A stretch of 43,781 nt of DNA from a virus. Lineage: Duplodnaviria > Heunggongvirae > Uroviricota > Caudoviricetes. The notes under the pieces were generated by a model. It saw only the letters and a list, made by a program, of their open reading frames with translations, made no database searches and was not told where the DNA came from. This document shows positions 17,822 through 43,476 of this stretch, one piece after another (positions within the stretch are counted from its first letter, which is position 1; every line of letters starts with the position of its first letter). The stretch lies in IMG/VR virus record IMGVR_UViG_2547132077_000004, positions 1 through 43,781 of that record; one strand, 5' to 3'. The translations under genes and the position numbers were made by a program.

Positions 17822-18346
17822 TTAATAGCCATCAGAAGTAAGCGCTACAGATTTCAACCCCTCAATGTCATCCTTGGACAGGGCGAACCATTCACCGTGC
17901 TTTCTCTTTGCGGCAAATTTGCGATGAAGCATGTTTTCAGTTTCTCTTCCACCAGGGATCAGGCACTCAAGCTTCAAACAGTCTGGTCCAGAGTTGCCAA
18001 GCGATTTGATGCGTTGTGGAATGTTGGATGAATACCCAATTTTGGTTAGCCCAGTTTTCTTCGATGACAAAACGTATACCTGAGGAGGTTCTTTTCTCTG
18101 GTCTTCCATTACACGTCTCATTGTTGCCATAAGTCCGCCGTGCATCAGCATTTCAACAAAGAACGCTGACCGAACACCTGACGACTTAAGCATGCCAGAA
18201 AATTCACTTGCCAATTCCATTAACTCTGCGATGTTTTCAGGAACTTTTTGGCAGTTATCTTCCTTGTATAAGGAAATCATTCTTTGAAGCTTTTCTTCTA
18301 ATTGGTTCATAGCGTCTTTACCTTTTAGAAAGTGAGCCTGTCTCAC
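17822..18346 (-). CDS. T5orf172/GIY-YIG-like domain protein
   Basis: C-terminal half has VYVLSS..GLTKIGYSSN....R....E....GEWF, resembling the T5orf172 (GIY-YIG superfamily) signature; N-terminal 90 aa unassigned; start may be the internal Met at MNQLEEK. Confidence 0.5.
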   Translation of the reverse strand: MRQAHFLKGKDAMNQLEEKLQRMISLYKEDNCQKVPENIAELMELASEFSGMLKSSGVRSAFFVEMLMHGGLMATMRRVMEDQRKEPPQVYVLSSKKTGLTKIGYSSNIPQRIKSLGNSGPDCLKLECLIPGGRETENMLHRKFAAKRKHGEWFALSKDDIEGLKSVALTSDGY

Positions 18347-19860: not shown

Positions 19861-20616
19861 TTAAAACGTATCACGTGACATCATGTCTTTTTCTAAAAAA
19901 AATCTTGATGAATATTGATGGGGAGGAACACCAAAATATCTTCTGAAAACACTTACAAAATATGACGTATTTTCATAACCGCATATCTCAGCAACTTTTC
20001 CAACAGAATATAAATTGTAGCTTAATAACCTTTCCGCCATCACCATTCGCTCTTCAAGAATTAACTTACTAAATGATAAGCCTTCGTGCTTTAATTTTCT
20101 TTTTAACAGACTTTCACTCAGATACAGTCTTGAAGATATATCACAAAGTCTCCATGCTGCAGATATATCCGTGTGAATAATAGCCTTAACTTTACTTCCT
20201 AAACTATTAAGACATCCAAATAAAAAACTTTGCACTATTTTCTCTGAAGATAAGATAGCAAGACATGCAAGTGATATTTGATTTCTAACAAAATCCACAG
20301 TTCTGCCATCACAATTCAAGCATGCAATCAAGTTCTTTAACAATGAAAAATCTTCACATTCCACCATCAAGTATGCCGGATAAAACCTTCTTACAGAAAA
20401 AGGTGAGAGTGTGTTGCTTTTAAAGAAATCATTAACTGTTTTCTCTTCAACATCTACGATCATTACATGATCTATATTTGATGAAAAAAAATCTTTTAAA
20501 TTGTAATCAATGAGAACAGCACTTCCTTTTTTAAACAAAATATCTTCTTTACCAATTCGGGCATCAAACGAGTTCAACACCAAAATGATAGAACATATGT
20601 ATGGCATATTATCCAC
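19861..20616 (-). CDS. AraC/XylS-family transcriptional regulator
   Basis: 251 aa; C-terminal AraC-type double HTH (GKVAEICGYENTSYFVSVFRRYFGVPPHQY); strongly AT-rich. Confidence 0.75.
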   Translation of the reverse strand: MDNMPYICSIILVLNSFDARIGKEDILFKKGSAVLIDYNLKDFFSSNIDHVMIVDVEEKTVNDFFKSNTLSPFSVRRFYPAYLMVECEDFSLLKNLIACLNCDGRTVDFVRNQISLACLAILSSEKIVQSFLFGCLNSLGSKVKAIIHTDISAAWRLCDISSRLYLSESLLKRKLKHEGLSFSKLILEERMVMAERLLSYNLYSVGKVAEICGYENTSYFVSVFRRYFGVPPHQYSSRFFLEKDMMSRDTF

Positions 20617-20956: not shown

Positions 20957-21916
20957 TTAATTTACCATCAGTCTTAGAGCCAGTTCGTCCGGATAGGGAT
21001 CGAAGTAATTCTGTGTAAGCAAGTAATCATTAGGATACTCACCCAGATAATGCTTCAGCAGAGTCAACGGCGCAAGAAGAGGTAATGTGCCAGAACGATA
21101 GTTAAGTATAACCTCGCTCAACTCTTTACGCTGGCGTGTACTTAAGTAGTTACTAAAATACCCCTGTATATGCATCAGCACATTCGTGTGATTTTTACGT
21201 GATGCAGGTTTTCTGAGAATCGCCATCAGCTTATCACGATACACCTCAAAGTATGATTCAAGGTCCGCCCACTCGTGTATTGCAGCCACAAATGGTCCCA
21301 TATCTTTATAGCCTGCCTGACTATGCGCCAACAACTGAAGCTTATAACGACTATGAAAAGCTAATAACTCTCTTCTTGATAATTTCTCCTTGTAAAGGTG
21401 ATTGAGCTCATGCAAAGCAAAAACTCTTTCAACAAAATTCTCACGAAGCACTGGATCATGTAATCGCCCATCCTCTTCAACCGGTAGCCAGGAAAACTTT
21501 TCCATCAAAGTGCTCGTAAATAGTCCCACTCCATCTTTACGACCTCGATTACCATTTTCATCATAGACACGCACGCGCTCCATACCACAGCTGGGAGATT
21601 TAGCACAAACCACAAACCCCGATACATCCTTTAATTTGTCCATATAAGAACGACTAAACTCTGTCATTCTCTCTGTCACATCCTCATTCTGGTCGTGGCT
21701 GAAACACATCCGTATATTTCCTTGCGTCGAGCGCACAAGACGTAGAGCAGGACGCGGAACTGGCAGCCCTATAGCCATTTCTGGACATACTGGTCTGAAT
21801 GTTACCCATTCCACTAATTTGTCCATTAAAAAGTCAGCTCTTTTGTGACCACCATCAAAACGAACAGCAGAACCGGCCAAACAACCGCTGATTCCAATCA
21901 CAGGTTTTTTTATCAT
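20957..21916 (-). CDS. DUF523/DUF1722 two-domain protein (YbgA-like)
   Basis: 319 aa; N-terminal IGISGCLAG...CPE and C-terminal helical region as in the YbgA family. Family assignment from memory. Confidence 0.55.
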   Translation of the reverse strand: MIKKPVIGISGCLAGSAVRFDGGHKRADFLMDKLVEWVTFRPVCPEMAIGLPVPRPALRLVRSTQGNIRMCFSHDQNEDVTERMTEFSRSYMDKLKDVSGFVVCAKSPSCGMERVRVYDENGNRGRKDGVGLFTSTLMEKFSWLPVEEDGRLHDPVLRENFVERVFALHELNHLYKEKLSRRELLAFHSRYKLQLLAHSQAGYKDMGPFVAAIHEWADLESYFEVYRDKLMAILRKPASRKNHTNVLMHIQGYFSNYLSTRQRKELSEVILNYRSGTLPLLAPLTLLKHYLGEYPNDYLLTQNYFDPYPDELALRLMVN

Positions 21917-22108: not shown

Positions 22109-22633
22109 ATGAAGTTATGGCCTGTGTTGACTGGCATTGCACTCTCTTTCACTCTTATAGCATGTAAGGCCCCGACACCACCTAAAGGTGTGCAGCCGAT
22201 TACAAATTTTGACGCCAACCGCTACCTCGGAAAGTGGTATGAAATAGCTCGCCTCGAGAACCGGTTCGAACGTGGTCTGGAACAGGTCAGCGCTACTTAT
22301 GGAAAACGGAACGACGGAGGGATTCGTGTACTTAACCGTGGATACGATCCAACGAAAAATAAATGGAGCGAGAGCGAAGGTAAAGCATACTTTACTGGAG
22401 ATACTAAAACTGCAGCGTTGAAGGTTTCGTTTTTTGGCCCCTTCTATGGTGGCTATAATGTAATCAAACTGGATGATGAGTATAAGTATGCTCTTGTCAG
22501 TGGTCCGAACAGAGAATATCTATGGATTCTGGCAAGGACCCCAACTATTCCAGATAAAGTAAAAGCAGACTATGTGCGAACCGCTCAAAAGTTGGGATTC
22601 AATGTCAATGAATTATTATGGGTTAAACAATAA
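22109..22633 (+). CDS. blc: Outer-membrane lipocalin (Blc-like lipoprotein)
   Basis: 174 aa; signal peptide with lipobox (LIAC); NFDANRYLGKWYEIARLENRFERGLE and KVSFFGPFYGGYNVI match the bacterial lipocalin Blc signature closely. Confidence 0.85.
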   Translation: MKLWPVLTGIALSFTLIACKAPTPPKGVQPITNFDANRYLGKWYEIARLENRFERGLEQVSATYGKRNDGGIRVLNRGYDPTKNKWSESEGKAYFTGDTKTAALKVSFFGPFYGGYNVIKLDDEYKYALVSGPNREYLWILARTPTIPDKVKADYVRTAQKLGFNVNELLWVKQ

Positions 22634-31131: not shown

Positions 31132-31235
31132 AACAACCTCCGTGGTTAATTTGAATCAAGATTAAAACTATGGTTGTTTTTAGTCAACAACCATTTTCGT
31201 TTGATGGAATAAAACCTTGGTTGTACATTTGGACT
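31132..31235. promoter_or_regulatory. Immunity-region divergent promoter/operator (oR, pR/pRM analogue)
   Basis: Intergenic region with reiterated ATGGTTG/CAACCAT half-sites in inverted orientation (aactATGGTTGtttttagtCAACAACCATttt). Confidence 0.5.
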
Positions 31236-31925
31236 ATGAAAACAACACTCTCAGAAAGACTTAAAGAAGCCAGATTAGCGCGAGGCCTTACACAAAAGGC
31301 GCTTGGGGATTTGGTCGGGGTTAGCCAGGCTGCTATTCAGAAAATCGAAACAGGGAAAGCTAATCAAACAACTAAAATCGTGGAGATCGCGAACGCTTTG
31401 GGTGTGCGCGCAGAATGGTTATCTTCTGGCGTTGGAAATATGTCAGACAGTACAGTGCAACCAATACAATCAACTGTCAGCCATTCCAAATACTTCAAGA
31501 TTGACGTTCTTGATATAGAAGTCAGTGCTGGGCCGGGAGTCATCAACCGTGAGTTTGTAGAAGTTCTACGCTCGGTTGAGTACTCGTTTGACGATGCTCG
31601 TCACATGTTCGATGGTAGGAAGGCGGAAAATATCCGCATCATTAACGTGCGTGGTGACAGCATGTCAGGAACGATCGAACCAGGTGATCTGCTGTTCGTT
31701 GATATCACAGTTAAATCTTTCGACGGTGATGGTATCTATGCGTTTCTGTACGACGACACAGCCCATGTAAAGCGCCTGCAAATGATGAAGGATAAGCTGC
31801 TGGTCATCTCTGATAACAAAAGCTACTCACCGTGGGACCCGATCGAGAAAGACGAGATGAACCGGGTGTTCATCTTCGGTAAGGTTATTGGGAGCATGCC
31901 GCAGACATATAGGAAGCATGGGTAG
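31236..31925 (+). CDS. cI-type prophage repressor (XRE HTH plus S24 LexA-like peptidase domain)
   Basis: From MKTTLSERLKEARL: HTH (LTQKALGDLVGVSQAAIQKIE) and C-terminal Ser/Lys dyad (VRGDSMSG ... HVKRLQ); the ORF-track start at 31170 is an extension. Confidence 0.8.
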   Translation: MKTTLSERLKEARLARGLTQKALGDLVGVSQAAIQKIETGKANQTTKIVEIANALGVRAEWLSSGVGNMSDSTVQPIQSTVSHSKYFKIDVLDIEVSAGPGVINREFVEVLRSVEYSFDDARHMFDGRKAENIRIINVRGDSMSGTIEPGDLLFVDITVKSFDGDGIYAFLYDDTAHVKRLQMMKDKLLVISDNKSYSPWDPIEKDEMNRVFIFGKVIGSMPQTYRKHG

Positions 31926-32803: not shown

Positions 32804-33100
32804 ATGAACGCTTATTACATTCAGGATCGTCTTGAGGCTCAGAGCTGGACGCGTCACTACCAGCAGATCGCCCGTGAAGAGAAAGAGGCAGAACTGGCAG
32901 ACAACATGGAAAAAGGTCTGCCCCAGCACCTGTTTGAATCACTCTGCATCGATCATTTACAACGCCACGGGGCCAGCAAAAAAGCCATTACCCGTGCGTT
33001 TGATGACGATGTTGAGTTTCAGGAGCGCATGGCAGAACACATCCGGTACATGGTTGAAACCATTGCTCACCACCAGGTTGATATTGATTCAGAGGTATAA
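32804..33100 (+). CDS. gam: Gam, host RecBCD inhibitor
   Basis: 98 aa, matches lambda GamS ([32 protein letters not shown]...). Confidence 0.85.
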
Positions 33101-33105
33101 AACGG

Positions 33106-33891
33106 ATGAGTACAGCACTCGCAACGCTGGCTGGGAAGCTGGCTGAACGTGTCGGCATGGATTCTGTCGACCCACAGGAACTGATCACCACTCTTCGCCA
33201 GACGGCATTTAAAGGTGATGCCAGCGATGCGCAGTTCATCGCATTACTGATCGTTGCCAACCAGTACGGCCTTAATCCATGGACGAAAGAAATTTACGCC
33301 TTTCCTGATAAGCAGAATGGCATCGTTCCGGTGGTGGGCGTTGATGGCTGGTCCCGCATCATCAATGAAAACCAGCAGTTTGATGGTATGGACTTTGAGC
33401 AGGACAATGAATCCTGCACATGCCGGATTTACCGCAAGGACCGCAATCATCCGATCTGCGTTACCGAGTGGATGGATGAATGCCGCCGCGAACCATTCAA
33501 AACTCGCGAAGGCAGAGAAATCACGGGGCCGTGGCAGTCGCATCCCAAACGGATGTTACGGCATAAAGCCATGATTCAGTGTGCCCGTCTGGCCTTCGGA
33601 TTTGCTGGTATCTATGACAAGGATGAAGCCGAGCGCATTGTCGAAAATACTGCATACACTGCAGAACGTCAGCCAGAACGCGACATCACTCCGGTTAACG
33701 ATGAAACCATGCAGGAGATTAACACTCTGCTGATCGCCCTGGATAAAACATGGGATGACGACTTATTGCCGCTCTGTTCCCAGATATTTCGCCGCGACAT
33801 TCGTGCATCGTCAGAACTGACACAGGCCGAAGCAGTGAAAGCTCTTGGATTCCTGAAACAGAAAGCCACTGAGCAGAAGGTGGCAGCATGA
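33106..33891 (+). CDS. bet: Bet (Red-beta) single-strand annealing protein
   Basis: 261 aa, matches lambda Bet essentially throughout as I recall it. Confidence 0.9.
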
Positions 33892-34568
33892 CACCGGACA
33901 TTATCCTGCAGCGTACCGGGATCGACGTGAGAGCTGTCGAACAGGGGGATGATGCATGGCACAAATTACGGCTCGGCGTCATCACCGCTTCAGAAGTTCA
34001 CAACGTGATAGCAAAGCCCCGCTCAGGAAAGAAGTGGCCTGACATGAAAATGTCCTACTTCCACACCCTGCTGGCTGAGGTTTGCACCGGTGTGGCTCCG
34101 GAAGTTAATGCTAAGGCGCTGGCCTGGGGAAAACAGTACGAGAACGACGCCAGAACCCTGTTTGAATTCACTTCCGGCGTGAATATTACTGAATCCCCGA
34201 TCATCTATCGCGACGAAAGTATGCGCACCGCCTGCTCTCCCGATGGTTTATGCAGTGACGGCAACGGCCTTGAACTGAAATGCCCGTTTACCTCCCGGGA
34301 TTTCATGAAATTCCGGCTCGGTGGTTTCGAGGCAATAAAATCGGCTTACATGGCCCAGGTGCAGTACAGCATGTGGGTGACGCGAAAAGATGCCTGGTAC
34401 TTTGCCAACTATGACCCGCGCATGAAGCGTGAAGGCCTGCATTATGTCGTGATTGAGCGGAATGAAAAGTATATGGCGAGTTTTGACGAGATGGTGCCGG
34501 AGTTCATCGAAAAAATGGACGAGGCACTGGCTGAAATTGGTTTTGTATTTGGGGAGCAATGGCGATGA
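33888..34568 (+). CDS. exo: Exo (Red-alpha) 5'-3' exonuclease
   Basis: 226 aa, matches lambda Exo; 4-nt overlap with bet. Confidence 0.9.
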
Positions 34569-34719
34569 CGCATCCTCACGATAATATCCGGGTAGGCGCG
34601 ATCACTTTCGTCTACTCCGTTACAAAGCGAGGCTGGGTATTTCCCGGGCTTTCTGTTATCCGAAATCCGCTGAAAGCCCAGCGGCTGGCTGAGGAGATAA
34701 ATAATAAACGGGAGGCGGT

Positions 34720-35964
34720 ATGAACGAGGCAGCAATAATTATTGTCCCAACAGACATCAGCAAGAAAATTCGCGAAATAGAAGAGTCCTACAACAGATAT
34801 ATAAATGAATTTCGCATCCCTAATGATCATAAGATAATCGTGAATTATTCAGCAGGAAAAGACAGCACTGCCACACTCGCAGTGGCGCACACATTATTCG
34901 GCAAACAGGTACATGCTGTTATGGCAGACACGGATAATGAGCATAATCTAACTGTCGAATTCGCCAGGAGCATTCATGAGCAGATCGGTTGTAGCCCTGT
35001 GCAGGTTGTGAAGCGGATTTACACTGAAGAAGATTTTGCCAAACGACGAATTTATCTGCAAAAAAACTGGTCTAAACGACAGATGATCCGCATGGGAGCA
35101 TACCGTGGCATAGTCATGCCTTCCCTCGCACGTTCTGACACCAAATTCGGGCAAGCCTGGAAGCGCACAGCAGAACGCTGGGGAATTGAGTTCGAAACTG
35201 CTCTTGATGCTGCGCTTTCCGTTATGCACCCATCCGGTAATAGCTTTTTGGATTGCTCCCTTCTGCATGGCAAGTTCCCTATGCTGCGCGACCGATTCTG
35301 TACAGACGAACTGAAAATTCAGATAGCTTTCGACGCAGCCATAAAGCCGCTCCTTGATGCTGGCGATGTTATCGTACAATGGTCTGGTGTTCGCGCGGAT
35401 GAGTCCTCTAAGCGCGCTGGATATGAGAGGTTTTCCCGCGATATGCGCGACGCCGATTTTCTCTACAACTTCCTGCCGCTCCACAAATGGACGGCTGAGG
35501 ACGTATTCGCAGTTCACAAATATTTCGGAATTAAGCCAAATCCACTTTATATGCAAGGTGCGTCTCGTGTTGGCTGCATGAATTGCGTGCTATGCAACAA
35601 AGAGGAAATTGCAGAGACGGCTGCGCGCTGGCCAGAGCACATCAAAAAGCACAAACAATGGGAGTTGAAGGTACGCCTTGCTAGTAGATGGGTACACTGG
35701 ATGAGCGTAGGAGAGATAAGCCAACGCTGGATGAAACAGTTCAATCTGCCACTTGGTCGAAATATTCAACTTTTTGGGCTAAAACCTGATGTGCAACACA
35801 TCGACTGGTCAGGATTTTATGGTCCTCGTGGAGATCTTAATTCTCCGGGTGTTTATGAAGTCGTAGAGTGGGCAAAAACAGGGCGCGGTGGCAAGGTCTA
35901 CGATCTTGTAAAAGCAAGTCTCGATATAGAGGTTTGCTCTTCACGCTACGGTCTGTGCGAATAA
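34720..35964 (+). CDS. PAPS-reductase-like (PP-loop ATP-pyrophosphatase superfamily) protein with Cys-rich C-terminal extension
   Basis: 414 aa; PP-loop motif (IIVNYSAGKDSTATLAVAH) near the N-terminus; C-terminal CMNCVLC cluster; same strand as the early-left operon. Confidence 0.65.
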   Translation: MNEAAIIIVPTDISKKIREIEESYNRYINEFRIPNDHKIIVNYSAGKDSTATLAVAHTLFGKQVHAVMADTDNEHNLTVEFARSIHEQIGCSPVQVVKRIYTEEDFAKRRIYLQKNWSKRQMIRMGAYRGIVMPSLARSDTKFGQAWKRTAERWGIEFETALDAALSVMHPSGNSFLDCSLLHGKFPMLRDRFCTDELKIQIAFDAAIKPLLDAGDVIVQWSGVRADESSKRAGYERFSRDMRDADFLYNFLPLHKWTAEDVFAVHKYFGIKPNPLYMQGASRVGCMNCVLCNKEEIAETAARWPEHIKKHKQWELKVRLASRWVHWMSVGEISQRWMKQFNLPLGRNIQLFGLKPDVQHIDWSGFYGPRGDLNSPGVYEVVEWAKTGRGGKVYDLVKASLDIEVCSSRYGLCE

Positions 35965-35975
35965 TACTAAGTTAT

Positions 35976-36578
35976 TTACTCATTATTTTTTGATAATACA
36001 ACTTTCTGCCAAGTTATCTGGTTACGTTGAAAACTATCTTTATTTATTGACGTAACTCGCAATGTTTTCAGACCTAACTGAGACGCTAACTCAAGAAGTT
36101 CCTCAGTATTAACAACGTTAATGTTTCTATCTGGTTCGGGAGGTCCTAAGCGCAATGTAATTATCATTCTCCCATTCAATGTTAAAAGATCAGTTAGCGT
36201 CTCTAGTGAGATTTTTTGCTCTTTTTTTGAAAGATGCATCCATACAGCACTGACTAAAATAAGGTCGAACTTTAGATTCATTGCTTTAACACTATGAAGA
36301 AAAGGCAATGAATCATCTAACCATATAATATGGTTAGATTTATAATATGAAGATGCCAAATTTCGCATCTTTTCACTTGGTTCAACAGCTATTACTTTAT
36401 AACCTAATTCATCTAACGCAGCAGCATCACGGCCGGAACCTGAACCGACATCCAAAGAGACACCCTTAGATTGTAAAATAAACTCTTCAACATCCTGAAA
36501 GATAGAGTAAAAATCAAGTGATATATAATCGGCAAATAAGCGATCAGCATTATTGTCATAAAACTTCCACGAAGTCAC
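35976..36578 (-). CDS. Class I SAM-dependent methyltransferase (small, TehB-like architecture)
   Basis: 200 aa; motif I (LDVGSGSGRDAAALDELGYKVIAVE) and motif post-I/II (FDLILVSAVWMHL); AT-rich; start overlaps the upstream gene by 4 nt. Confidence 0.7.
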   Translation of the reverse strand: MTSWKFYDNNADRLFADYISLDFYSIFQDVEEFILQSKGVSLDVGSGSGRDAAALDELGYKVIAVEPSEKMRNLASSYYKSNHIIWLDDSLPFLHSVKAMNLKFDLILVSAVWMHLSKKEQKISLETLTDLLTLNGRMIITLRLGPPEPDRNINVVNTEELLELASQLGLKTLRVTSINKDSFQRNQITWQKVVLSKNNE

Positions 36579-37207
36579 TTTGATAATCCTGATTTTGCTT
36601 CGATAAATAATCCTGACTCAATATTTTTAATTGTTGCTTTGTATGTATTATGTGAAATGTCTTTTGAAAACAAGTTTGGATGATATACCCCAGCAATATT
36701 AACAAAGAAGCAAACAATAAGCATTACTGCCCAGCACGACACTACTATGTAACCAGTTTCCTTATTATCATAGCTAGAGGGCAATTTAAATCCAGCGTCT
36801 CTAGTAATTTCATTTAAAATATAGTTTTTTGAAGGATCTTCAATGTTTTTTTGTAGTGCTATTTTCGAACCAATTAAAGACCTTAAGCGATAAAGTGTAA
36901 TCATTGTTGTGAAATCAAACAATGCTAACACTGCAAAGATAATCCATAGGGAACTTTCATTTGCCAGTGTTGTTGCATACCACAACCCACCATTGACAGC
37001 AATTACGAAACTAGGGATTTGCCACATGAGCTGATTTAAAGCCCGCATGTGTTGTCCTGCTTCAAGATAAGTAATCTCCTGCAGCTTCTGATACCAACGG
37101 ATTGCCTCAATTTTTAGATTTTCGTTAATCTGTTGCTGTTGCTGATTTACCATGTAATCCCTGCTCAACGAACTGAAACTTTTAATGATGCTATCACAAC
37201 TTATCAA
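36575..37207 (-). CDS. Predicted integral membrane protein (three hydrophobic helices), unknown family
   Basis: 210 aa; soluble N-terminal about 60 aa (poly-Gln QQQQQ) then helices IPSFVIAVNGGLWYATTL, LWIIFAVLALFDFTTMITLY, GYIVVSCWAVMLIVCFFVNIAGVY; translationally coupled to the methyltransferase. Confidence 0.55.
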   Translation of the reverse strand: MISCDSIIKSFSSLSRDYMVNQQQQQINENLKIEAIRWYQKLQEITYLEAGQHMRALNQLMWQIPSFVIAVNGGLWYATTLANESSLWIIFAVLALFDFTTMITLYRLRSLIGSKIALQKNIEDPSKNYILNEITRDAGFKLPSSYDNKETGYIVVSCWAVMLIVCFFVNIAGVYHPNLFSKDISHNTYKATIKNIESGLFIEAKSGLSK

Positions 37208-37521
37208 GAAGATGAATTTCGTTATTTAAATTTAATATATCGGAGGCTTTTATCAGAACTTATACATAATACAAGCCCGATGGCTGTCACCAGACAGGAG
37301 CATCAATAACATTTGCCGTAGCGTACTGAAGAAGCACCGCGAAACGGTAACGCTGAGGGATTCACACCGACTCATTTAAGCCTGGCGATCGGCATGTTAA
37401 ACGGCATCTTTAAGGAGCGATGAACATGAAAAGCAAAATCATCAGGGAGCTACAGGCTCCTTTTTTATTATTCGCATTCACCCTCAAGCGTATTAACCAA
37501 CAATTCAGAGATTAATGGAAG

Positions 37522-37740
37522 ATGGCAGACATCATTGATTCAGCATCAGAAATCGAAGAATTACAGCGCAATACAGCAATAAAAATGCGTCGTCTGAACC
37601 ACCAGGCTATATCTGCCACTCATTGTTGTGAGTGTGGCGATCCGATAGATGAACGAAGACGCCTGGCCGTTCAGGGTTGTCGGACTTGTGCAAGTTGCCA
37701 GGAGGAGATCGAACTTAAGAACAAACAATGGGGACTGTGA
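37522..37740 (+). CDS. DksA/TraR-family C4 zinc-finger protein
   Basis: 72 aa; CCECGDPIDERRR ... CRTCASC four-Cys zinc finger with acidic N-terminus; common upstream of xis in lambdoid phages. Confidence 0.75.
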   Translation: MADIIDSASEIEELQRNTAIKMRRLNHQAISATHCCECGDPIDERRRLAVQGCRTCASCQEEIELKNKQWGL

Positions 37741-38066: not shown

Positions 38067-38482
38067 GGCCTGCCAGCTTCTCAAGATATCCAGACCTACA
38101 GCAATCATGTCAATCCAATAAATGGAGACTCCAAGTGGAAGAAGAAATCTTCACTCGTGAAGAGGCTGCGTCGTATCTGAAGGTAGACAAAGGCACTATC
38201 ACGCAGTGGATACGAAGTGGACGACTTCAAGCCGCAAAGATAAATCCAGATAAACCTAAAAGCCCATATCGCATTTGCAAGTCAGACTGCATTGCGGCGC
38301 TTAAGTCTGTGAGACACAATAGCGCGGTGAATGCGGTTGATGTGCAGGAGGTTAAAGCATGTCAATCAAACTGCGCGGTGGCACATGGCACTGCGATTTC
38401 GTCGCGCCAGATGGATCAAGAGTTAGACGCTCTCTTGAAACATCGGACAAGAGGCAAGCGCAAGAACTTCACGATCGTCTGA
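38063..38482 (+). CDS. xis: Excisionase/AlpA-like HTH protein (start uncertain; overlaps int)
   Basis: HTH segment FTREEAASYLKVDKGTITQWIRSGRL immediately upstream of int; the ORF overlaps int by 124 nt in another frame, so the true start, or an alternative start codon, is unresolved. Confidence 0.5.
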   Translation: MRPASFSRYPDLQQSCQSNKWRLQVEEEIFTREEAASYLKVDKGTITQWIRSGRLQAAKINPDKPKSPYRICKSDCIAALKSVRHNSAVNAVDVQEVKACQSNCAVAHGTAISSRQMDQELDALLKHRTRGKRKNFTIV

Positions 38483-39519
38483 AAGCAGAAGCGTGGAGAG
38501 TAAAAAATCTCGGTGAATCACCGAAAAAGCTATTCAAGGAAGCCTGCATACGGTGGCTGCGAGAGAAAGCGGATAAGAAGTCCATTGATGATGACAAGAG
38601 CATTATATCGTTCTGGATGTTGCACTTCAGAGAAACCATTCTCTCTGACATAACAACAGAAAAAATAATGGAGGCGGTAGACGGGATGGAAAACCGCCGC
38701 CATCGCCTGAACTGGGAGATGAGCCGGGATAGGTGTTTGCGGCTTGGCAAGCCAGTGCCGGAGTATAAACCAAAGCTGGCAAGCAAAGGAACGAAGACGC
38801 GGCATCTGGCAATACTTCGCGCTATTCTCAATATGGCTGTTGAATGGGGATGGCTTGACAGGGCGCCCAAAATATCAACACCACGCGTTAAGAATGGACG
38901 AATCAGATGGCTTACAGAGGAGGAATCGAAGCGCCTGTTTGCAGAAATTGCTCCTCATTTCTTCCCTGTGGTCATGTTTGCAATCACGACAGGCCTTCGT
39001 CGTTCCAACGTTACAGACCTTGAGTGGTCACAGGTCGATCTGGATAAGAAAATGGCATGGATGCACCCTGATGAAACAAAAGCTGGCAATGCGATCGGAG
39101 TTCCTCTTAACGAAACCGCATGCCAGATATTAAGAAAACAGCAGGGGCTCCATAAGAGATGGGTATTTGTCCACACCAAACCTGCCTACCGAAGCGACGG
39201 AACAAAAACAGCAGCGGTAAGGAAGATGAGAACCGACAGCAACAAGGCATGGAAGGGAGCGTTAAAGCGGGCAGGCATTAGCAACTTCCGCTTCCATGAC
39301 CTGAGGCATACCTGGGCAAGCTGGCTGGTTCAGTCCGGTGTCTCTCTTCTTGCACTTAAAGAGATGGGAGGATGGGAAACTCTCGAAATGGTTCAAAGAT
39401 ACGCCCACCTTTCAGCCGGGCATCTCACCGAGCACGCGAGCAAAATCGATGCGATTATAAGTCGCAATGGCACAAATACGGCACAAGAGGAGAACGTAGT
39501 TTACTTAAATGCGAGGTAA
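38359..39519 (+). CDS. int: Tyrosine integrase
   Basis: 386 aa; C-terminal catalytic signature (HDLRHTWASWLVQSGVSLLALKEMGGWETLEMVQRYAHL) with R..HxxR..Y; ends 15 bp from the att core. Confidence 0.9.
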   Translation: MSIKLRGGTWHCDFVAPDGSRVRRSLETSDKRQAQELHDRLKAEAWRVKNLGESPKKLFKEACIRWLREKADKKSIDDDKSIISFWMLHFRETILSDITTEKIMEAVDGMENRRHRLNWEMSRDRCLRLGKPVPEYKPKLASKGTKTRHLAILRAILNMAVEWGWLDRAPKISTPRVKNGRIRWLTEEESKRLFAEIAPHFFPVVMFAITTGLRRSNVTDLEWSQVDLDKKMAWMHPDETKAGNAIGVPLNETACQILRKQQGLHKRWVFVHTKPAYRSDGTKTAAVRKMRTDSNKAWKGALKRAGISNFRFHDLRHTWASWLVQSGVSLLALKEMGGWETLEMVQRYAHLSAGHLTEHASKIDAIISRNGTNTAQEENVVYLNAR

Positions 39520-40065: not shown

Positions 40066-41001
40066 CTAAAATAGGTATTCTTTTATTCTGTAAAAATCGG
40101 ATATTTTCTCAAGCGCTGATGTAGGAATGGTTTTTTTGTTTATACTCAAACCTGTTTGTGTATTTTTTAGTTCTGCGATAATGTATTCATCATCAATATA
40201 ATCCTCTCTCTCTCCAATGAAGTTTATTATGAATTCTTTTGCTTTTAAAGCTTTTGTGATGTGATATTTTTCATTGAATAGAATATACACTTTGAAAATA
40301 GAATTGATGTGCTCATTAAAAATCGGCATTATTGGGAAAGATTCATCCATCTGTGTCAGGTCAGTCTTTACCTGACTCCCCCACTTAGAAAATCCACGAA
40401 TCAATTCATCTCTCATGAAATATACGATTAACTCTACAATTAAAGTACTACTGGTTTCATCAAGTGATTTTGATATCGTGTACGAAAGTGGTGGCATTCC
40501 ACAATGCTGAACAAAATTTCTGAGCTTATACATGAATCTATATGAAAACTTGCTATCAAATTCATTTCCCGTCAGCGTTTTAAACTCGACAAATTCCGTT
40601 GAATTAGCCCCATACCTCCTGTTAATACTGGTTTCCATATGGTCAAGTAAAGTTTTCACTGACATCATATAGTTCAGTATTCTTGTATTTAAAAAGAATT
40701 TGAAGGTTTTGAAGGGATATGAACCAATAAAAGAAGGTTCTTCGGCTACTTTTTTAACCGTTTCATCCAGAAGTTCCATTAGTGACTCATAGTTCAATCT
40801 TACATATTCTACTAAGGCAAAATCATTCACAAACTCCATAAGTATATTTTTTTGTGTATCATACACTTCAATTTCCTCATTACTAAGGGGTCTTATTTCA
40901 TTTATCTCGTTTACTTCACTTCCATCTGAAATTGATTCTTTAGCAAGGATTATAGTGGATTCGCTCAAGCTTATCTCCCTGATTAATTTTCTGTTAATCA
41001 A
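40066..41001 (-). CDS. Hypothetical protein, strongly AT-rich, unknown family
   Basis: 311-aa ORF, Asn/Lys/Ile/Glu/Phe-rich, divergent from the DUF262/DUF1524 gene across a 585-bp intergenic region. Confidence 0.45.
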   Translation of the reverse strand: MINRKLIREISLSESTIILAKESISDGSEVNEINEIRPLSNEEIEVYDTQKNILMEFVNDFALVEYVRLNYESLMELLDETVKKVAEEPSFIGSYPFKTFKFFLNTRILNYMMSVKTLLDHMETSINRRYGANSTEFVEFKTLTGNEFDSKFSYRFMYKLRNFVQHCGMPPLSYTISKSLDETSSTLIVELIVYFMRDELIRGFSKWGSQVKTDLTQMDESFPIMPIFNEHINSIFKVYILFNEKYHITKALKAKEFIINFIGEREDYIDDEYIIAELKNTQTGLSINKKTIPTSALEKISDFYRIKEYLF

Positions 41002-41586: not shown

Positions 41587-43476
41587 ATGAAATCCGAAAC
41601 GCTAACCATCCAGCAACTTTTCCAAAATCAACGACAATATCGTGTTCCATTCTATCAACGTGCCTACGTATGGACGCAACAAAACCAATGGTCAGCTTTG
41701 CTGGAGGATATCTTCGAAAAAGCACATAGCCGACTTTTGGGAACAAAACCAACTCCCCATTTCCTTGGCGCGGTGGTGCTGGAACCTCAACTCAAAAACA
41801 GCTTGTTAGGTGTAGATACCATACATATTATTGACGGCCAGCAACGTTTAACCACTCTTCAATATATTCTGGCATCCATTCGATTATCATTGCGTGCTAC
41901 AGGCCTTTCTGATTTGGAAGGGTTAGTATTGACTTGCTTGAAAAATACAAACGAAGCAACTATGCGAAATAAAAAGGTAGAATGCTTCAAACTGTGGCCA
42001 ACTTTTCGAGACCAAACTCATTTTATTCAAAGTTTTAATGTTGAAAACATTGACGATCTCCGTGATGTATTTTCTGATAGCTTCACGCAACATGGTACGT
42101 TACGTAAACATTTCAACCACCCGCCGTCACTAGAGGCATTATGGTTTTTTACTGAAGCCTTTATAAAATGGATTAAAATAGAAAAGTACTCACCACATGA
42201 AAATGCTGTAGCACTAATTGAGGCTGTCTTGACGGATCTGAAACTGGTAAGCATATTTCTCGAAGCTGAAGATGATGCCCAAATAATTTTTGAAACATTA
42301 AATGGCCGAGGGGCGGAACTTCATGCCACGGATCTTATTCGCAACTACATCTTTATGTGCGCTGAGCATGAAAATATTAATGCTATTGAATTATATGAAA
42401 ATGAATGGAAGAGCTTTGAAGATACATACTGGTCGGAAAGGCAACGCCGTGGACGTATTAATAAACCACGCATGGAGTGGCTAGTGCATGCGACATTGCA
42501 ATCAGAAAGGCAACGTGAAATTGATCTGTCTCGTCTTTACAATGAGTATCGTGATTATGTAAGTAAGGACTTGCCTTCACAACGAGCTGATCTGCAAGTA
42601 AAGCGCCTCAAACAATATGCATCACAATATAAAGAATTAGTTGGTGGTTTTGGCACAACCCCCATCTCACACTTTGGACATCGCATCGCAGCCTATGATG
42701 TGACGACACTTTATCCGCTTGCTTTGTTCATTTCGATAGCTAATATCGCCGATGATGAGAAAGCAGCCATGTATAATGATCTTGTCTCCTACGTAGTACG
42801 AAGAGCCGTATGTGGCCTGACGCCAAAGAATTACAACAATGTATTTATGAATGTATTGCGGCACTTGTCTAAAACGGAAATTTCCAGTGTTGAGTTACGT
42901 AATATCCTCAATAGCTTAAATGGCGAAGCCTCACGTTGGCCTGGTGACTCAGAATTTCTCAATGCTTGCATCAATGCTCCACTTTATCCTGGCAGGCTCG
43001 ACGCACCGAAAATGCGCTCAATGTTAACGGAACTTGAAAGAGAACTTTGTCGCCAAGTGAAGACAGAGAAGCCTGATGTTCCAAATCTTTCCAATCTCGA
43101 TATCGATCATCTTATGCCTCAAAGTTGGTATTCCTGTTGGCCTCTCGAAAATGGTCATATGGTGACAAATTCAGATGCAACGGTATTGAACCAAATTGTT
43201 CTGTCTGGAACAGATCTTACCCCTGAGCAGCTACTGGTAAGGAAACGGCAACAAGCGATAGCTACGTTGGGAAATCTAACTTTGCTTAACCTTAGCGTAA
43301 ACCGTTCTGTTCAGAATGCTGTATTTCTGAAAAAACGTGATGCTCTCATCGTCCACACCAATCTACGACTGAACATACCACTTATACTTAAGGATAAATG
43401 GGATGAGGGTGAAATCCTGAAGCGGGGTAAAAAGTTGGGGGAAATTGCATTGAAAGTATGGCCAAAACACGATTAA
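41587..43476 (+). CDS. DUF262 (ParB-like NTPase) + DUF1524 (His-Me finger nuclease) protein, GmrSD-family type IV restriction enzyme-like
   Basis: 629 aa; N-terminal YRVPFYQRAYVWT and IIDGQQRLTTLQ (DUF262 DGQQR motif); C-terminal LDIDHLMPQSW ... LGNLTLLNLSVNRSVQN (DUF1524-like). Confidence 0.75.
   Translation: MKSETLTIQQLFQNQRQYRVPFYQRAYVWTQQNQWSALLEDIFEKAHSRLLGTKPTPHFLGAVVLEPQLKNSLLGVDTIHIIDGQQRLTTLQYILASIRLSLRATGLSDLEGLVLTCLKNTNEATMRNKKVECFKLWPTFRDQTHFIQSFNVENIDDLRDVFSDSFTQHGTLRKHFNHPPSLEALWFFTEAFIKWIKIEKYSPHENAVALIEAVLTDLKLVSIFLEAEDDAQIIFETLNGRGAELHATDLIRNYIFMCAEHENINAIELYENEWKSFEDTYWSERQRRGRINKPRMEWLVHATLQSERQREIDLSRLYNEYRDYVSKDLPSQRADLQVKRLKQYASQYKELVGGFGTTPISHFGHRIAAYDVTTLYPLALFISIANIADDEKAAMYNDLVSYVVRRAVCGLTPKNYNNVFMNVLRHLSKTEISSVELRNILNSLNGEASRWPGDSEFLNACINAPLYPGRLDAPKMRSMLTELERELCRQVKTEKPDVPNLSNLDIDHLMPQSWYSCWPLENGHMVTNSDATVLNQIVLSGTDLTPEQLLVRKRQQAIATLGNLTLLNLSVNRSVQNAVFLKKRDALIVHTNLRLNIPLILKDKWDEGEILKRGKKLGEIALKVWPKHD

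What the first reader, a model, noticed from the sequence alone, without database searches (positions are those of the whole stretch)
34720..35964. PAPS-reductase-like PP-loop enzyme carried in the phage early-left operon
A 414-aa protein with a clear PP-loop (SAGKDS) and a Cys-rich C-terminal extension sits just after exo, on the same strand, so it is probably expressed early from pL. PAPS-reductase-fold proteins are the sulfur or base-modifying components of DNA-modification systems such as DndC, SspD and the 7-deazaguanine pathways. A phage-borne orphan at this position could modify phage DNA or nucleotides as anti-restriction, or act in a defence role against other phages. It is orphaned from the usual Dnd/Ssp partners.
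Basis: partly seen in the sequence, partly recalled or inferred. Interest (0 to 1): 0.6.

Follow-up and report, generated by a model that had tools for sequence, protein, structure and literature searches.

The report
Phage DndC/SspD-like sulfur enzyme with partners
A lambda-like prophage carries, in its early operon, an enzyme related to those that put sulfur into the DNA backbone, and next to it sits a membrane-anchored methyltransferase pair that also accompanies true bacterial DNA-sulfur systems, so the gene is probably a phage DNA-modification or counter-defence tool rather than a sulfur-metabolism gene.

Summary
The ORF is real: 34720-35964 (+), 414 aa. It has an intact PP-loop (SAGKDS) and a confidently predicted PAPS-reductase/PP-loop fold. 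It is translationally coupled to the gam-bet-exo-DUF1317 early-left genes.

It is not a CysH-type sulfate-assimilation enzyme. It shares SGGKDS, [FW]CTxxLK and GCxxC with the DNA phosphorothioation (PT) writers DndC and SspD (hhalign probability 99% to both). It nevertheless forms its own large phage clade, which includes coliphage 186 Orf84 and Burkholderia phiE125 gp57.

Family members sit next to, or are fused with, DNA methyltransferases of several classes. A PAPS-reductase-Dam fusion in a Vibrio phage has been reported to overcome Dnd.

The gene is not an orphan. The convergent low-GC pair (200-aa SAM methyltransferase 35976-36578, 192-aa membrane protein 36575-37153) recurs with long- and short-form phage enzymes. 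The two are fused in distant relatives. In 28 of 38 well-flanked non-redundant loci the pair lies beside dndBCDE-type, sspBCD-type or solo PAPS-reductase genes. I found no description of this partner module.

Most likely function: early-expressed sulfur-inserting DNA modification for counter-defence. No chemistry was demonstrated, and the NTPase partner required in known PT systems is missing.

The parts
34720..35964 (+). 414-aa PAPS-reductase-fold PP-loop enzyme, long form of a phage-specific clade related to DndC/SspD
34849..34866 (+). PP-loop S-A-G-K-D-S (ATP pyrophosphatase motif, intact)
   Evidence: Invariant S44, G46, K47, D48, S49. CysH structures have the degenerate SSSFGIQ at this position
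35296..35316 (+). F-C-T-D-E-L-K motif: C194 is the putative first Fe-S ligand and K199 is invariant
   Evidence: Invariant C194, T195, L198, K199. The same [FW]CTxx[LM]K motif is in DndC, Dnd2-type and SspD sequences
35383..35406 (+). S-G-V-R-A-D-E-S loop typical of the PAPS-reductase family
   Evidence: Invariant G223, V224, R225, E228, S229. Aligns to GLRREQS/GQRRDQS of PAPS/APS reductases
35566..35595 (+). R-V-G-C-M-N-C-V-L-C: C286 and C289 are the putative Fe-S ligands
   Evidence: Invariant R283-C286 and C289. Aligns residue for residue to SIGCEPC / SIGCAPC of the [4Fe-4S] APS reductases 2goy and 7lhr, and to RSGCxFC of SspD and RFGCxVC of DndC
35935..35961 (+). Extreme C-terminal tail C-S-S-R-Y-G-L-C-E with a conserved Cys pair (C406, C413): candidate mobile sulfur-relay or catalytic tail
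   Evidence: S408, G411 and C413 invariant; C406, Y410 and L412 at least 90%. The tail is kept in short-form relatives at 31-35% identity. SspD also ends in a Cys pair
34559..34723 (+). DUF1317 ORF (54 aa) between exo and the enzyme gene; its stop overlaps the enzyme's ATG
   Evidence: Pfam PF07026 8e-34; ATGA overlap
35976..36578 (-). 200-aa class I SAM-dependent methyltransferase (small-molecule type). It converges on the enzyme gene with 11 bp between the stop codons; low GC (0.35)
   Evidence: Pfam Methyltransf_11/25/23, TehB; PDB profile hits TehB, glycine and phosphoethanolamine N-methyltransferases; no [DNS]PP[YFW] motif; PADLOC mad2 C-terminal domain 7e-15; recurs next to PAPS-type genes; GC
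36575..37153 (-). 192-aa membrane protein (RefSeq start; the ORF can extend to a TTG at 37207). Its stop overlaps the methyltransferase start. It forms one unit with the methyltransferase
   Evidence: No Pfam, PADLOC, PHROG or PDB match; hydrophobic segments at about 60-90 and 131-163; invariant R-x-L-N-Q-x-x-W-Q-x-P and GG-x-W motifs; fused to the same methyltransferase family in P0465 and P0467-P0469

Best explanation
The gene encodes an early-expressed phage member of the sulfur-inserting, DNA-phosphorothioation-type branch of PAPS-reductase-fold PP-loop ATP pyrophosphatases. This is the branch that contains DndC, SspD and BrxP.

Proposed mechanism, steps inferred unless marked:
1. The intact SGGKDS loop binds ATP and adenylates the target oxygen. 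(Motif and fold shown; activity inferred.)
2. C194, C286 and C289 hold a [4Fe-4S] cluster with one open iron site, as reported for DndC. (Homology of two of the ligands to APS-reductase cluster ligands shown; cluster inferred.)
3. The conserved C-terminal Cys pair C406/C413 receives sulfur from a host cysteine desulfurase such as IscS and delivers it to the active site. (Inferred.)
4. The substrate is most likely replicating phage DNA, giving a phosphorothioate or related sulfur mark that shields the phage from host restriction, or interferes with PT-based defence. (Inferred from gene neighbourhoods and one published phenotype.)

The gene is read with gam-bet-exo from pL (inferred from layout). 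It belongs to a facultative three-gene module with a convergent, low-GC, membrane-anchored SAM methyltransferase (two genes). This pair is itself a recurrent companion of dndBCDE and sspBCD clusters, and its role is unknown.
For: Fold and motifs. The intact PP-loop contrasts with the degenerate loop of CysH. RVGCxxC aligns to the Fe-S CxxC of APS reductases. The [FW]CTxxLK + GCxxC signature is shared with DndC, Dnd2-type and SspD. hhalign gives Prob 99.1 to SspD and 99.0 to DndC with all motifs in register. PADLOC partial hits: SspD 6e-19, BrxP 4e-16, DndC 6e-9.

Expression layout: ATGA overlap with DUF1317, no promoter-like site upstream, same strand as gam/bet/exo and downstream of the cI-like repressor. 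In phage 186 the homologue Orf84 lies in the early lytic operon, coupled to gene A.

DNA link: a DNA methyltransferase ORF lies within 3.5 kb in 14 of 63 non-redundant groups. In 11 of these it is within 300 bp and on the same strand, and four unrelated classes are represented (binomial P=1.2e-7 against random placement in the neighbourhood). There is an MT-A70 fusion beside Nmad5/DUF4406 genes in an Aeromonas prophage. phiE125 has MTase-PAPS-ParB and Rivra has MTase-PAPS-MTase.

Phenotype precedent: in Vibrio phage 44E38.1, a PAPS-reductase-Dam fusion plus a small neighbouring gene conferred escape from Dnd.

Partner pair: it is convergent to long-form enzymes at different phage positions and to short-form enzymes only 32-33% identical. 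The two partner proteins are fused in distant relatives. The pair lies beside dndBCDE (L151, L157, L188, L195), sspBCD (L149, L190, L191, L224, L235) and related clusters. Of 38 non-redundant loci with at least 8 kb of flank, 28 have a Dnd-type, Ssp-type or solo PAPS-reductase context.
Against: No chemistry or phenotype exists for this protein or its clade. Phage 186 Orf84 is annotated as non-essential.

Known PT writers need an NTPase partner (DndD, SspC or BrxC) and a DNA-recognition subunit. Isolates with a PAPS-reductase gene but no such partner showed no PT by LC-MS. Neither partner is in the window.

The protein fails the curated DndC and PAPS/APS-reductase model cut-offs and scores at most 57 bits by BLAST against SspD or DndC. 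About half of the protein (insertion ~98-160, region ~320-414) has no counterpart in any characterised enzyme.

The tested Vibrio protein has a different architecture, and I could not retrieve it for direct comparison.

Most family members (about 80%) have no adjacent DNA methyltransferase, and about 87% lack the membrane/methyltransferase pair. Part of that pairing could reflect a shared moron hotspot next to int.

Confidence: 0.5

Rival explanations
1. Prophage-encoded defence or exclusion module. The enzyme marks resident DNA with sulfur, and the membrane protein/methyltransferase pair acts as sensor or effector against superinfecting phages. This would be a minimal PT-based immunity system carried by the prophage.
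For: Dnd, Ssp and BREX type 4 are defence systems built around this enzyme type. The partner pair is low-GC, on the opposite strand and has its own promoter-like site, as morons expressed in lysogens do. In bacteria the pair sits in PT defence islands beside PbeA, SspE-like DndB-domain proteins and GHKL ATPases.
Against: The enzyme gene is translationally coupled inside the repressed early lytic operon and has no promoter-like site of its own. In P2-like phages it is coupled to replication gene A. The convergent arrangement, with 11 bp between stops and no terminator, suggests the two units interfere with each other rather than being co-expressed. About 87% of family members lack the pair.
Confidence: 0.15
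2. Sulfur transfer or another PP-loop reaction on a non-DNA substrate. Candidates are tRNA/RNA thiolation (TtuA/TtcA/NcsA-like), or thiolation/adenylation of a free nucleotide or small molecule. In that case the neighbouring small-molecule-type methyltransferase could methylate the product.
Against: No RNA-binding domain was detected. Neighbours are DNA methyltransferases, ParB-like proteins and replication genes rather than tRNA or translation genes. Sequence motifs and profile comparison place it with DndC/SspD. The partner pair tracks DNA PT systems.
Confidence: 0.17
3. Sulfur-independent DNA or nucleotide modification. The enzyme would adenylate a base or phosphate oxygen and substitute nitrogen or another nucleophile, as QueC, TilS or GMP synthase do, acting together with the adjacent DNA methyltransferases.
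For: The PP-loop superfamily is dominated by amidotransferase-type chemistry. There are weak N-terminal hits to QueC and GMP synthase. The family is associated with Nmad5/DUF4406 nucleotide-modification genes in Aeromonas.
Against: The QueC hit covers only the PP-loop and is below threshold (18.2 vs 22 bits). The invariant Cys triad, the C-terminal Cys pair and the DndC/SspD-specific motifs point to Fe-S/sulfur chemistry.
Confidence: 0.08
4. Genuine auxiliary metabolic gene: a CysH-like PAPS/APS reductase that boosts host sulfate assimilation during infection. This is what the database name suggests and what some virome papers assume.
For: The database annotation is 'phosphoadenosine phosphosulfate reductase family protein'. 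The top structural matches are PAPS/APS reductases. One preprint interprets Bifidobacterium prophage homologues this way.
Against: NCBIfam scores are far below the curated cut-offs (50.8 vs 154, 47.1 vs 235, 35.1 vs 165). It has an intact ATP-type PP-loop where CysH has a degenerate one. It has C-T rather than C-C at the cluster motif and no ECGLH motif. Only about 190 of 414 residues align. E. coli already has cysH, and no sulfur-assimilation genes are nearby.
Confidence: 0.03
5. Transcriptional regulator, as annotated in the phi458 genome record.
For: The GenBank product name for phi458 Orf4 is 'putative transcriptional regulator'.
Against: No DNA-binding domain was detected by Pfam, NCBIfam or PHROGs. 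The whole length matches a PAPS-reductase phage family.
Confidence: 0.01

Closest known systems
SspD (PT writer of the SspABCD system)
   Same: PAPS-reductase fold. Shares SGG[KR]DS, WCTKxLK vs FCTDELK, and RSGCxFC vs RVGCMNC. The alignment continues through the helices after GCxxC (hhalign Prob 99.1, E 4e-19, 204 columns). Both end in a Cys pair at the extreme C-terminus. Both can be accompanied by the same membrane-protein/methyltransferase pair.
   Different: At most 57 BLAST bits. The PADLOC SspD model matches only residues 183-328. The phage protein has a ~60-residue insertion, an N-terminal helix and a longer C-terminal region. No SspB (DUF4007), SspC or SspA is nearby.
DndC (PT writer of DndABCDE)
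   Same: PP-loop, WCTDRLK and RFGCxVC motifs in register (hhalign Prob 99.0, E 9e-18). DndC is reported to bind a [4Fe-4S] cluster through three Cys. Also accompanied by the membrane-protein/methyltransferase pair in several loci.
   Different: TIGR03183 scores 32 bits against a cut-off of 290. 23-38 BLAST bits. DndC's C-terminal ~230 residues are unrelated. No DndB/D/E nearby. DndC lacks the C-terminal CxxxxxxC tail.
Vibrio phage 44E38.1 p0018 (PAPS-reductase domain fused to Dam), Piel et al. 2022
   Same: A phage-encoded PAPS-reductase-domain protein physically linked to a DNA adenine methyltransferase. It is the only member of this general kind with a phenotype (escape from host Dnd). This mirrors the methyltransferase adjacency and fusion seen in the present family.
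   Different: 479-aa fusion with the PAPS domain at residues 4-175, so a different architecture. A lytic podophage. The phenotype required transfer of two genes.
Coliphage 186 Orf84, Burkholderia phiE125 gp57 and P2-like 'cysH' genes (short form of the same clade)
   Same: Same clade (31-35% identity over residues 40-414). All motifs are kept, including the C-terminal Cys tail. Early lytic operon position.
   Different: About 320-340 aa. They lack the N-terminal helix and the ~98-160 insertion. Function also unknown: the 186 record says non-essential.
Assimilatory APS/PAPS reductases (CysH; PDB 2goy, 1sur, 6vpu, 7lhr)
   Different: CysH has a degenerate PP-loop, no ATP hydrolysis and a C-terminal ECGLH catalytic motif. 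APS reductase has a Cys-Cys pair where this family has Cys-Thr. Curated model cut-offs are not met.
BrxP (BREX type 4)
   Same: PADLOC BrxP hit 3.9e-16 on residues 219-310. A PT-writing PAPS-reductase domain.
   Different: BrxP is ~780 aa and fused to DUF4007 with extra domains. It works with BrxC/Z/L, none of which is present here.

Membership tests
PAPS_reduct superfamily (Pfam PF01507), PP-loop ATP pyrophosphatase fold | Match to the domain model above the curated cut-off, and the alpha/beta PP-loop fold | tested here: met
PP-loop ATP pyrophosphatases (catalytically competent) | Intact SGGxDS phosphate-binding loop | tested here: met
   SAGKDS at residues 44-49; S44, G46, K47, D48 and S49 invariant in 54 sequences
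CysH / APS reductase (sulfate assimilation) | Score above the curated NCBIfam cut-offs for PAPS/APS reductase | tested here: not met
   NF002537 50.8 vs 154; TIGR02055 47.1 vs 235.3; TIGR00434 35.1 vs 165.1; TIGR02057 23.7 vs 254.2
CysH / APS reductase (sulfate assimilation) | C-terminal ECGLH catalytic cysteine motif and a degenerate PP-loop (feature definitions from established knowledge) | tested here: not met
   No ECGLH in the sequence; the tail is CSSRYGLCE. The PP-loop is intact, whereas 6vpu and 1sur show SSSFGIQ at the aligned position
DndC | Equivalog model TIGR03183 above cut-off | tested here: not met
   32.2 bits vs 290.4; PADLOC DndC models match only residues 187-265
DndC | Three-Cys [4Fe-4S] signature (WCTDRLK ... 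RFGCxxC) | tested here: met
   FCTDELK (193-199) and RVGCMNC (283-289) align in register with the DndC alignment A7. Metal binding itself was not tested
DndC | Operonic partners DndD (SMC-like ATPase) and DndE | tested here: not met
   None in the window, and none among the neighbour clusters of 119 related loci
SspD | Full-length match to SspD models | tested here: not met
   PADLOC SspD 6e-19, but only residues 183-328 vs profile positions 74-211 of 277. hhalign covers 204 columns with a large unaligned insertion
SspD | Partners SspB (DUF4007) and SspC | tested here: not met
   Absent from the window and from phage loci
BrxP (BREX type 4) | Fusion to DUF4007 and neighbours BrxC/BrxZ/BrxL | tested here: not met
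   Only the PAPS_reduct domain was found. The BrxP hit covers 92 residues
QueC (7-deazaguanine pathway) | Pfam/NCBIfam QueC above cut-off | tested here: not met
   PF06508 18.2 vs 22 bits, residues 38-97 only; TIGR00364 17.7 vs 150
IbrA / DUF3440-type PAPS reductases with a ParB-like IbrB partner | DUF3440 C-terminal domain and an adjacent ParB-like gene (feature definitions from my own knowledge) | tested here: not met
   No DUF3440 hit at E<=0.01. A ParB-like neighbour occurs in only 5 of 63 groups and not in the window
Phage PAPS-reductase family phrog_424 | Full-length match to the PHROG profile | tested here: met
   E 7.2e-66; residues 5-413 vs profile positions 121-420 of 460
DNA phosphorothioation writers (functional class) | Produces PT linkages in DNA; binds a [4Fe-4S] cluster; ATP pyrophosphatase activity | not testable with these tools
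   Requires LC-MS/MS of DNA, anaerobic biochemistry and spectroscopy

The most novel reading that the evidence does not exclude
The three genes (PP-loop/Fe-S enzyme, membrane protein, SAM methyltransferase) form a self-contained minimal sulfur-based DNA modification module. It would work without the DndD/SspC-type ATPase that all known phosphorothioation systems require. The membrane-anchored methyltransferase would be a so-far unrecognised general accessory of PT systems (Dnd, Ssp and phage-borne). It might, for example, act on the sulfur itself (S-methylation or turnover of PT, or of the sulfur donor), or couple PT status to the membrane. Thousands of temperate phages, including coliphage 186, would then carry a previously unnoticed DNA-sulfur chemistry.
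Probability: 0.2. Interest if true: 0.85.

Novelty: new variant of a known kind. Interest (0 to 1): 0.62.

Why it matters
Genes named 'PAPS reductase' are among the commonest so-called auxiliary metabolic genes reported in prophages and viromes. They are often read as sulfur-assimilation genes.

This analysis shows that the clade in this window carries the catalytic signature of DNA phosphorothioation writers, not of CysH. It is an early phage gene that tends to sit beside DNA methyltransferases. The clade is very large: more than 4,700 90%-identity clusters for the short form alone, including phage 186 Orf84.

If these enzymes modify phage DNA, they would be a widespread counter-defence mechanism. 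They would also be the first PT-type writers that work without a DndD/SspC partner.

Separately, the membrane-protein/methyltransferase pair beside dndBCDE, sspBCD and phage enzymes is a concrete, testable new component of PT biology. It can be studied in tractable E. coli prophages (SE11, phi458).

Tried and rejected
- The final Piel et al. paper is not held, and no accession for phage 44E38.1 could be found. Direct comparison with the only tested phage protein was therefore impossible.
- JSS1_004, first suspected as the cited anti-Dnd 'PAPS reductase', is a kinase.
- Pfam scanning of 123 family representatives for recurrent fusions found only PAPS_reduct, so the MT-A70 fusion is rare.
- A single-sequence methyltransferase search in viral contigs reached only near-identical copies. 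An alignment was needed.
- Model coordinates are not exposed to scripts, so the spatial clustering of C194/C286/C289 and docking of the C-terminal tail could not be measured.
- The PDB hit 'PptA' (21fy_C) could not be identified in the literature.
- Searches for phage 186 orf84, for accessory-gene screens and for a membrane-protein/methyltransferase partner of Dnd/Ssp found nothing relevant.
- Strict co-divergence of the pair with the enzyme was rejected. Methyltransferase identity is 42-44% whether the partner enzyme is 69% or 32% identical.
- The idea that the pair replaces known restriction partners is not settled: PbeA is present in one locus and absent in others.
Full report
**1. What is there**

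The window is a lambdoid prophage, 96-98% identical over most of its length to the DLP12-site prophage of E. coli SE11. It differs in the lysis/moron region, the immunity region and everything beyond ~38.1 kb.

On the + strand, downstream of a cI-like repressor (31170-31925), lie:
- gam (32804-33100)
- bet (33106-33891)
- exo (33888-34568)
- a DUF1317 ORF (34559-34723)
- the reported ORF, 34720-35964, 414 aa

Its ATG overlaps the DUF1317 stop codon (ATGA), and no promoter-like site precedes it. The layout therefore makes it part of the early-left transcript.

The exact gene is rare in E. coli: 29 of 5,426 complete genomes, always single copy, chromosomal and at least 99% identical. It occurs in one sequenced phage, phi458, where it is labelled 'putative transcriptional regulator' without any supporting domain.

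**2. Fold and catalytic signature**

Pfam gives PAPS_reduct at E=6.8e-21, and phrog_424 covers the whole protein at E=7e-66. An AlphaFold model built on 54 sequences has pLDDT 81.4 and pTM 0.81.

The enzyme is not a CysH:
- Curated NCBIfam cut-offs are missed by a wide margin.
- The PP-loop is intact (SAGKDS; consensus SGGKDS), whereas CysH structures have SSSFGIQ at that position.
- There is no ECGLH motif.

Invariant residues across 54 sequences, down to 36% identity, include the PP-loop, C194/T195/K199 (FCTDELK), G223-S229 (GVRADES), R283-C289 (RVGCMNC) and C413 in the extreme C-terminal tail CSSRYGLCE. C406 is nearly invariant.

RVGCxxC aligns residue for residue with SIGCEPC/SIGCAPC of the Fe-S-containing APS reductases 2goy and 7lhr.

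A direct comparison shows that DndC, a second Dnd-type enzyme, SspD and the phage family all share SGG[KR]DS, [FW]CTxx[LM]K and GCxxC. From my own knowledge, APS reductases have Cys-Cys where these have Cys-Thr. That fits the three-Cys cluster reported for DndC. SspD and the phage family both end in a Cys pair.

Profile-profile comparison gives Prob 99.1 (E 4e-19) to SspD and 99.0 (E 9e-18) to DndC, with all motifs in register. BLAST scores, however, are at most 57 bits, and an insertion (~98-160) and the region ~320-414 are clade-specific.

I therefore treat the protein as working like a DndC/SspD-type enzyme, but not as a member of either family.

**3. The clade**

The long form (414-444 aa) is found in prophages of Enterobacterales, Aeromonas, Vibrio and Oceanisphaera (487 clusters).

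A short form (~320-340 aa, 31-35% identical, all motifs and the C-terminal tail kept) is very abundant, with more than 4,781 clusters in one capped search. It includes coliphage 186 Orf84, P2-like phages, Yersinia P37, Burkholderia phiE125 gp57 and phi644-2 gp56, Stenotrophomonas S1, Pseudomonas Riah and Agrobacterium Rivra.

An exhaustive profile search of 1.84 billion representatives found 247 clusters at E<=1e-30 and 1,056 at E<=1e-10.

The phage 186 record says Orf84 is non-essential and that its translation is needed for translation of the replication protein A. In 9 of 63 non-redundant groups the gene lies directly upstream of a P2-type gene A.

**4. Link to DNA modification**

- In 14 of 63 non-redundant groups a DNA methyltransferase ORF lies within 3.5 kb.
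- In 11 of those 14 it is within 300 bp and on the same strand.
- The enzymes belong to unrelated classes (D12/Dam, MT-A70, N4/N6 beta-class and a further type).
- If placement within the neighbourhood were random, I would expect about 2 of 14 to be adjacent (binomial P=1.2e-7).

Examples are phiE125 (MTase-gp57-ParB-like) and Rivra (MTase-enzyme-MTase). One Aeromonas prophage has an MT-A70::enzyme fusion beside Nmad5 and DUF4406 genes.

The preprint of Piel et al. 2022 reports a relevant phenotype. Moving a PAPS-reductase-Dam fusion gene plus a small neighbour into a sensitive Vibrio podophage gave escape from the host Dnd system. A 2026 paper lists Aca-regulated phage PAPS reductases as candidate anti-defence genes.

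**5. The gene is not an orphan**

Immediately downstream, on the opposite strand, lie two low-GC (0.35) genes whose stop and start overlap:
- a 200-aa class I SAM methyltransferase (35976-36578)
- a 192-aa membrane protein (36575-37153)

Only 11 bp and no terminator separate the methyltransferase stop from the enzyme stop.

The same pair follows homologous enzymes at other phage positions:
- after O/P in the nin region of a Klebsiella prophage
- after a ParB-HTH gene
- after ERF/SSB genes

It also follows short-form enzymes only 32-33% identical. Its own divergence does not track that of the enzyme.

The membrane protein family is small (82 clusters, all 'hypothetical'). Its most distant members are fused to the same methyltransferase family, so the two proteins form one unit.

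Distant unfused and fused members lie beside canonical PT clusters:
- dndB-C-D-E in Microvirgula and in metagenomic contigs
- sspB-C-D in Pseudomonas mediterranea
- a DndB / TusA / DndD-like / PAPS-reductase island with a ScoMcrA-type nuclease on a Rhizobium plasmid

A metagenome scan gave 68 non-redundant loci. Results for the 38 with at least 8 kb of flank:

| Feature | Loci (of 38) |
|---|---|
| Methyltransferase adjacent or fused | 34 |
| PAPS-reductase-type gene in the locus | 24 |
| Dnd-type context | 14 |
| Ssp-type context | 6 |
| Both Dnd and Ssp | 2 |
| Solo PAPS reductase | 6 |
| FtsK/DndE-like marker only | 3 |
| Cysteine desulfurase only | 1 |
| No marker | 6 |

dnd or ssp genes occur in only about 6% of gut genomes (abstract listed). 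By inference, this is an enrichment of orders of magnitude.

Neither the detailed 2024 reappraisal of PT systems nor full-text searches mention such a partner. PADLOC has no model for the membrane protein, and it matches the methyltransferase only to the C-terminal domain of MADS mad2. mad2 is the predicted DNA methyltransferase of that system.

**6. Interpretation**

Shown:
- the ORF, the fold and the conserved motifs
- homology to the PT writers
- early-operon placement
- adjacency to DNA methyltransferases
- the conserved partner pair and its association with Dnd/Ssp clusters

Inferred:
- ATP-dependent activation of the target
- a three-Cys [4Fe-4S] cluster
- sulfur relay through the C-terminal cysteines from a host desulfurase
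- DNA as the substrate
- a counter-defence benefit

The main weakness is that all characterised PT systems need an NTPase and a DNA-recognition subunit. Isolates with a lone PAPS-reductase gene lacked PT. No such partner is present here, unless a host system is hijacked or the clade-specific regions (or an adjacent methyltransferase) take over that role.

Part of the enzyme-pair linkage may also reflect a shared moron hotspot next to int.

Rival readings are listed with their tests: a prophage defence module, RNA or small-molecule thiolation, non-sulfur PP-loop chemistry, a CysH-like metabolic gene, and a regulator. The metabolic-gene and regulator readings are effectively excluded by the sequence evidence.

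**7. Verdict**

- The gene is a new variant within a known enzyme kind.
- The most interesting outcome is the previously undescribed membrane-anchored methyltransferase partner, shared between phage enzymes and bacterial Dnd/Ssp systems.

Noticed in passing
window 20957-21916 (-), with 19861-20616 (-) and 22109-22633 (+): A 319-aa protein with a TudS-type 2-thiouracil desulfurase domain (PF04463, 3e-40) plus DUF1722. It sits in a low-GC moron region beside an AraC-type regulator and a lipocalin. This is a second thio-nucleobase-related gene in the same prophage. The region differs from the SE11 prophage.
   Followed up: no
window 41587-43476 (+) and 40066-41001 (-): Just beyond the integrase lies a 629-aa GmrSD-type (DUF262/DUF1524) enzyme. 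It is a full-length match to a PADLOC type IV methyl-directed restriction enzyme model (1478 bits) and shares its N-terminal domain with SspE. Before it, in 33% GC DNA, is a 311-aa ORF with no family match. So a modification-dependent nuclease sits right next to a prophage that may modify DNA.
   Followed up: partly
window 38359-39519 (+) versus SE11 intD: The integrase is only ~55% identical to that of the otherwise 96-98% identical SE11 and phi458 prophages. Similarity ends at ~38.1 kb. This indicates a swapped integration module, and probably a different attachment site.
   Followed up: no
window 17822-18346 (-): A 174-aa T5orf172/MUG113 (GIY-YIG-like) domain protein in the late/moron region, with a weak PADLOC PDC-S57 hit.
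   Followed up: no
L003 6357-10094 (Aeromonas veronii prophage): A co-directional cluster: DUF4406 (nucleoside deoxyribosyltransferase-like), Nmad5, a 232-aa unknown protein, and an MT-A70::PAPS-reductase fusion. It lies downstream of the repressor and a WYL protein. It looks like a dedicated DNA-modification operon.
   Followed up: partly
L188 1727-4018, L235 9015-11309, L157 3461-5713; L191 1-2271, L147 2313-4766: Bacterial loci with the membrane-protein/methyltransferase pair often also carry one of two kinds of neighbour. One is an unannotated ~750-aa protein with a weak N-terminal DndB-like domain (an SspE-like architecture that PADLOC does not recognise). The other is a GHKL-type ATPase. 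These may be undescribed PT-linked effectors.
   Followed up: partly
L143 3462-4466 (phage 186 orf84): The classic phage 186 early gene orf84 is a short-form member of this clade. Its record says it is non-essential, but that its translation is required for translation of replication protein A. This is a ready genetic system for testing function.
   Followed up: partly
L001 6221-7465 (phi458 Orf4): The GenBank annotation 'putative transcriptional regulator' for the identical protein in phage phi458 has no support from any domain search.
   Followed up: yes
PDB chain 21fy_C ('PptA'): A solved 270-residue chain named PptA matches the NPLY-GCxxC region of the family profile (E 6e-6). I could not find out what it is.
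   Followed up: partly
L002 11520-12020 (SE11 copy of window ~37250-37740): In SE11 the ZapA-like and TraR/DksA genes just downstream of the three-gene module are annotated as frameshifted pseudogenes. In the window the TraR/DksA ORF (37522-37740) is intact.
   Followed up: no
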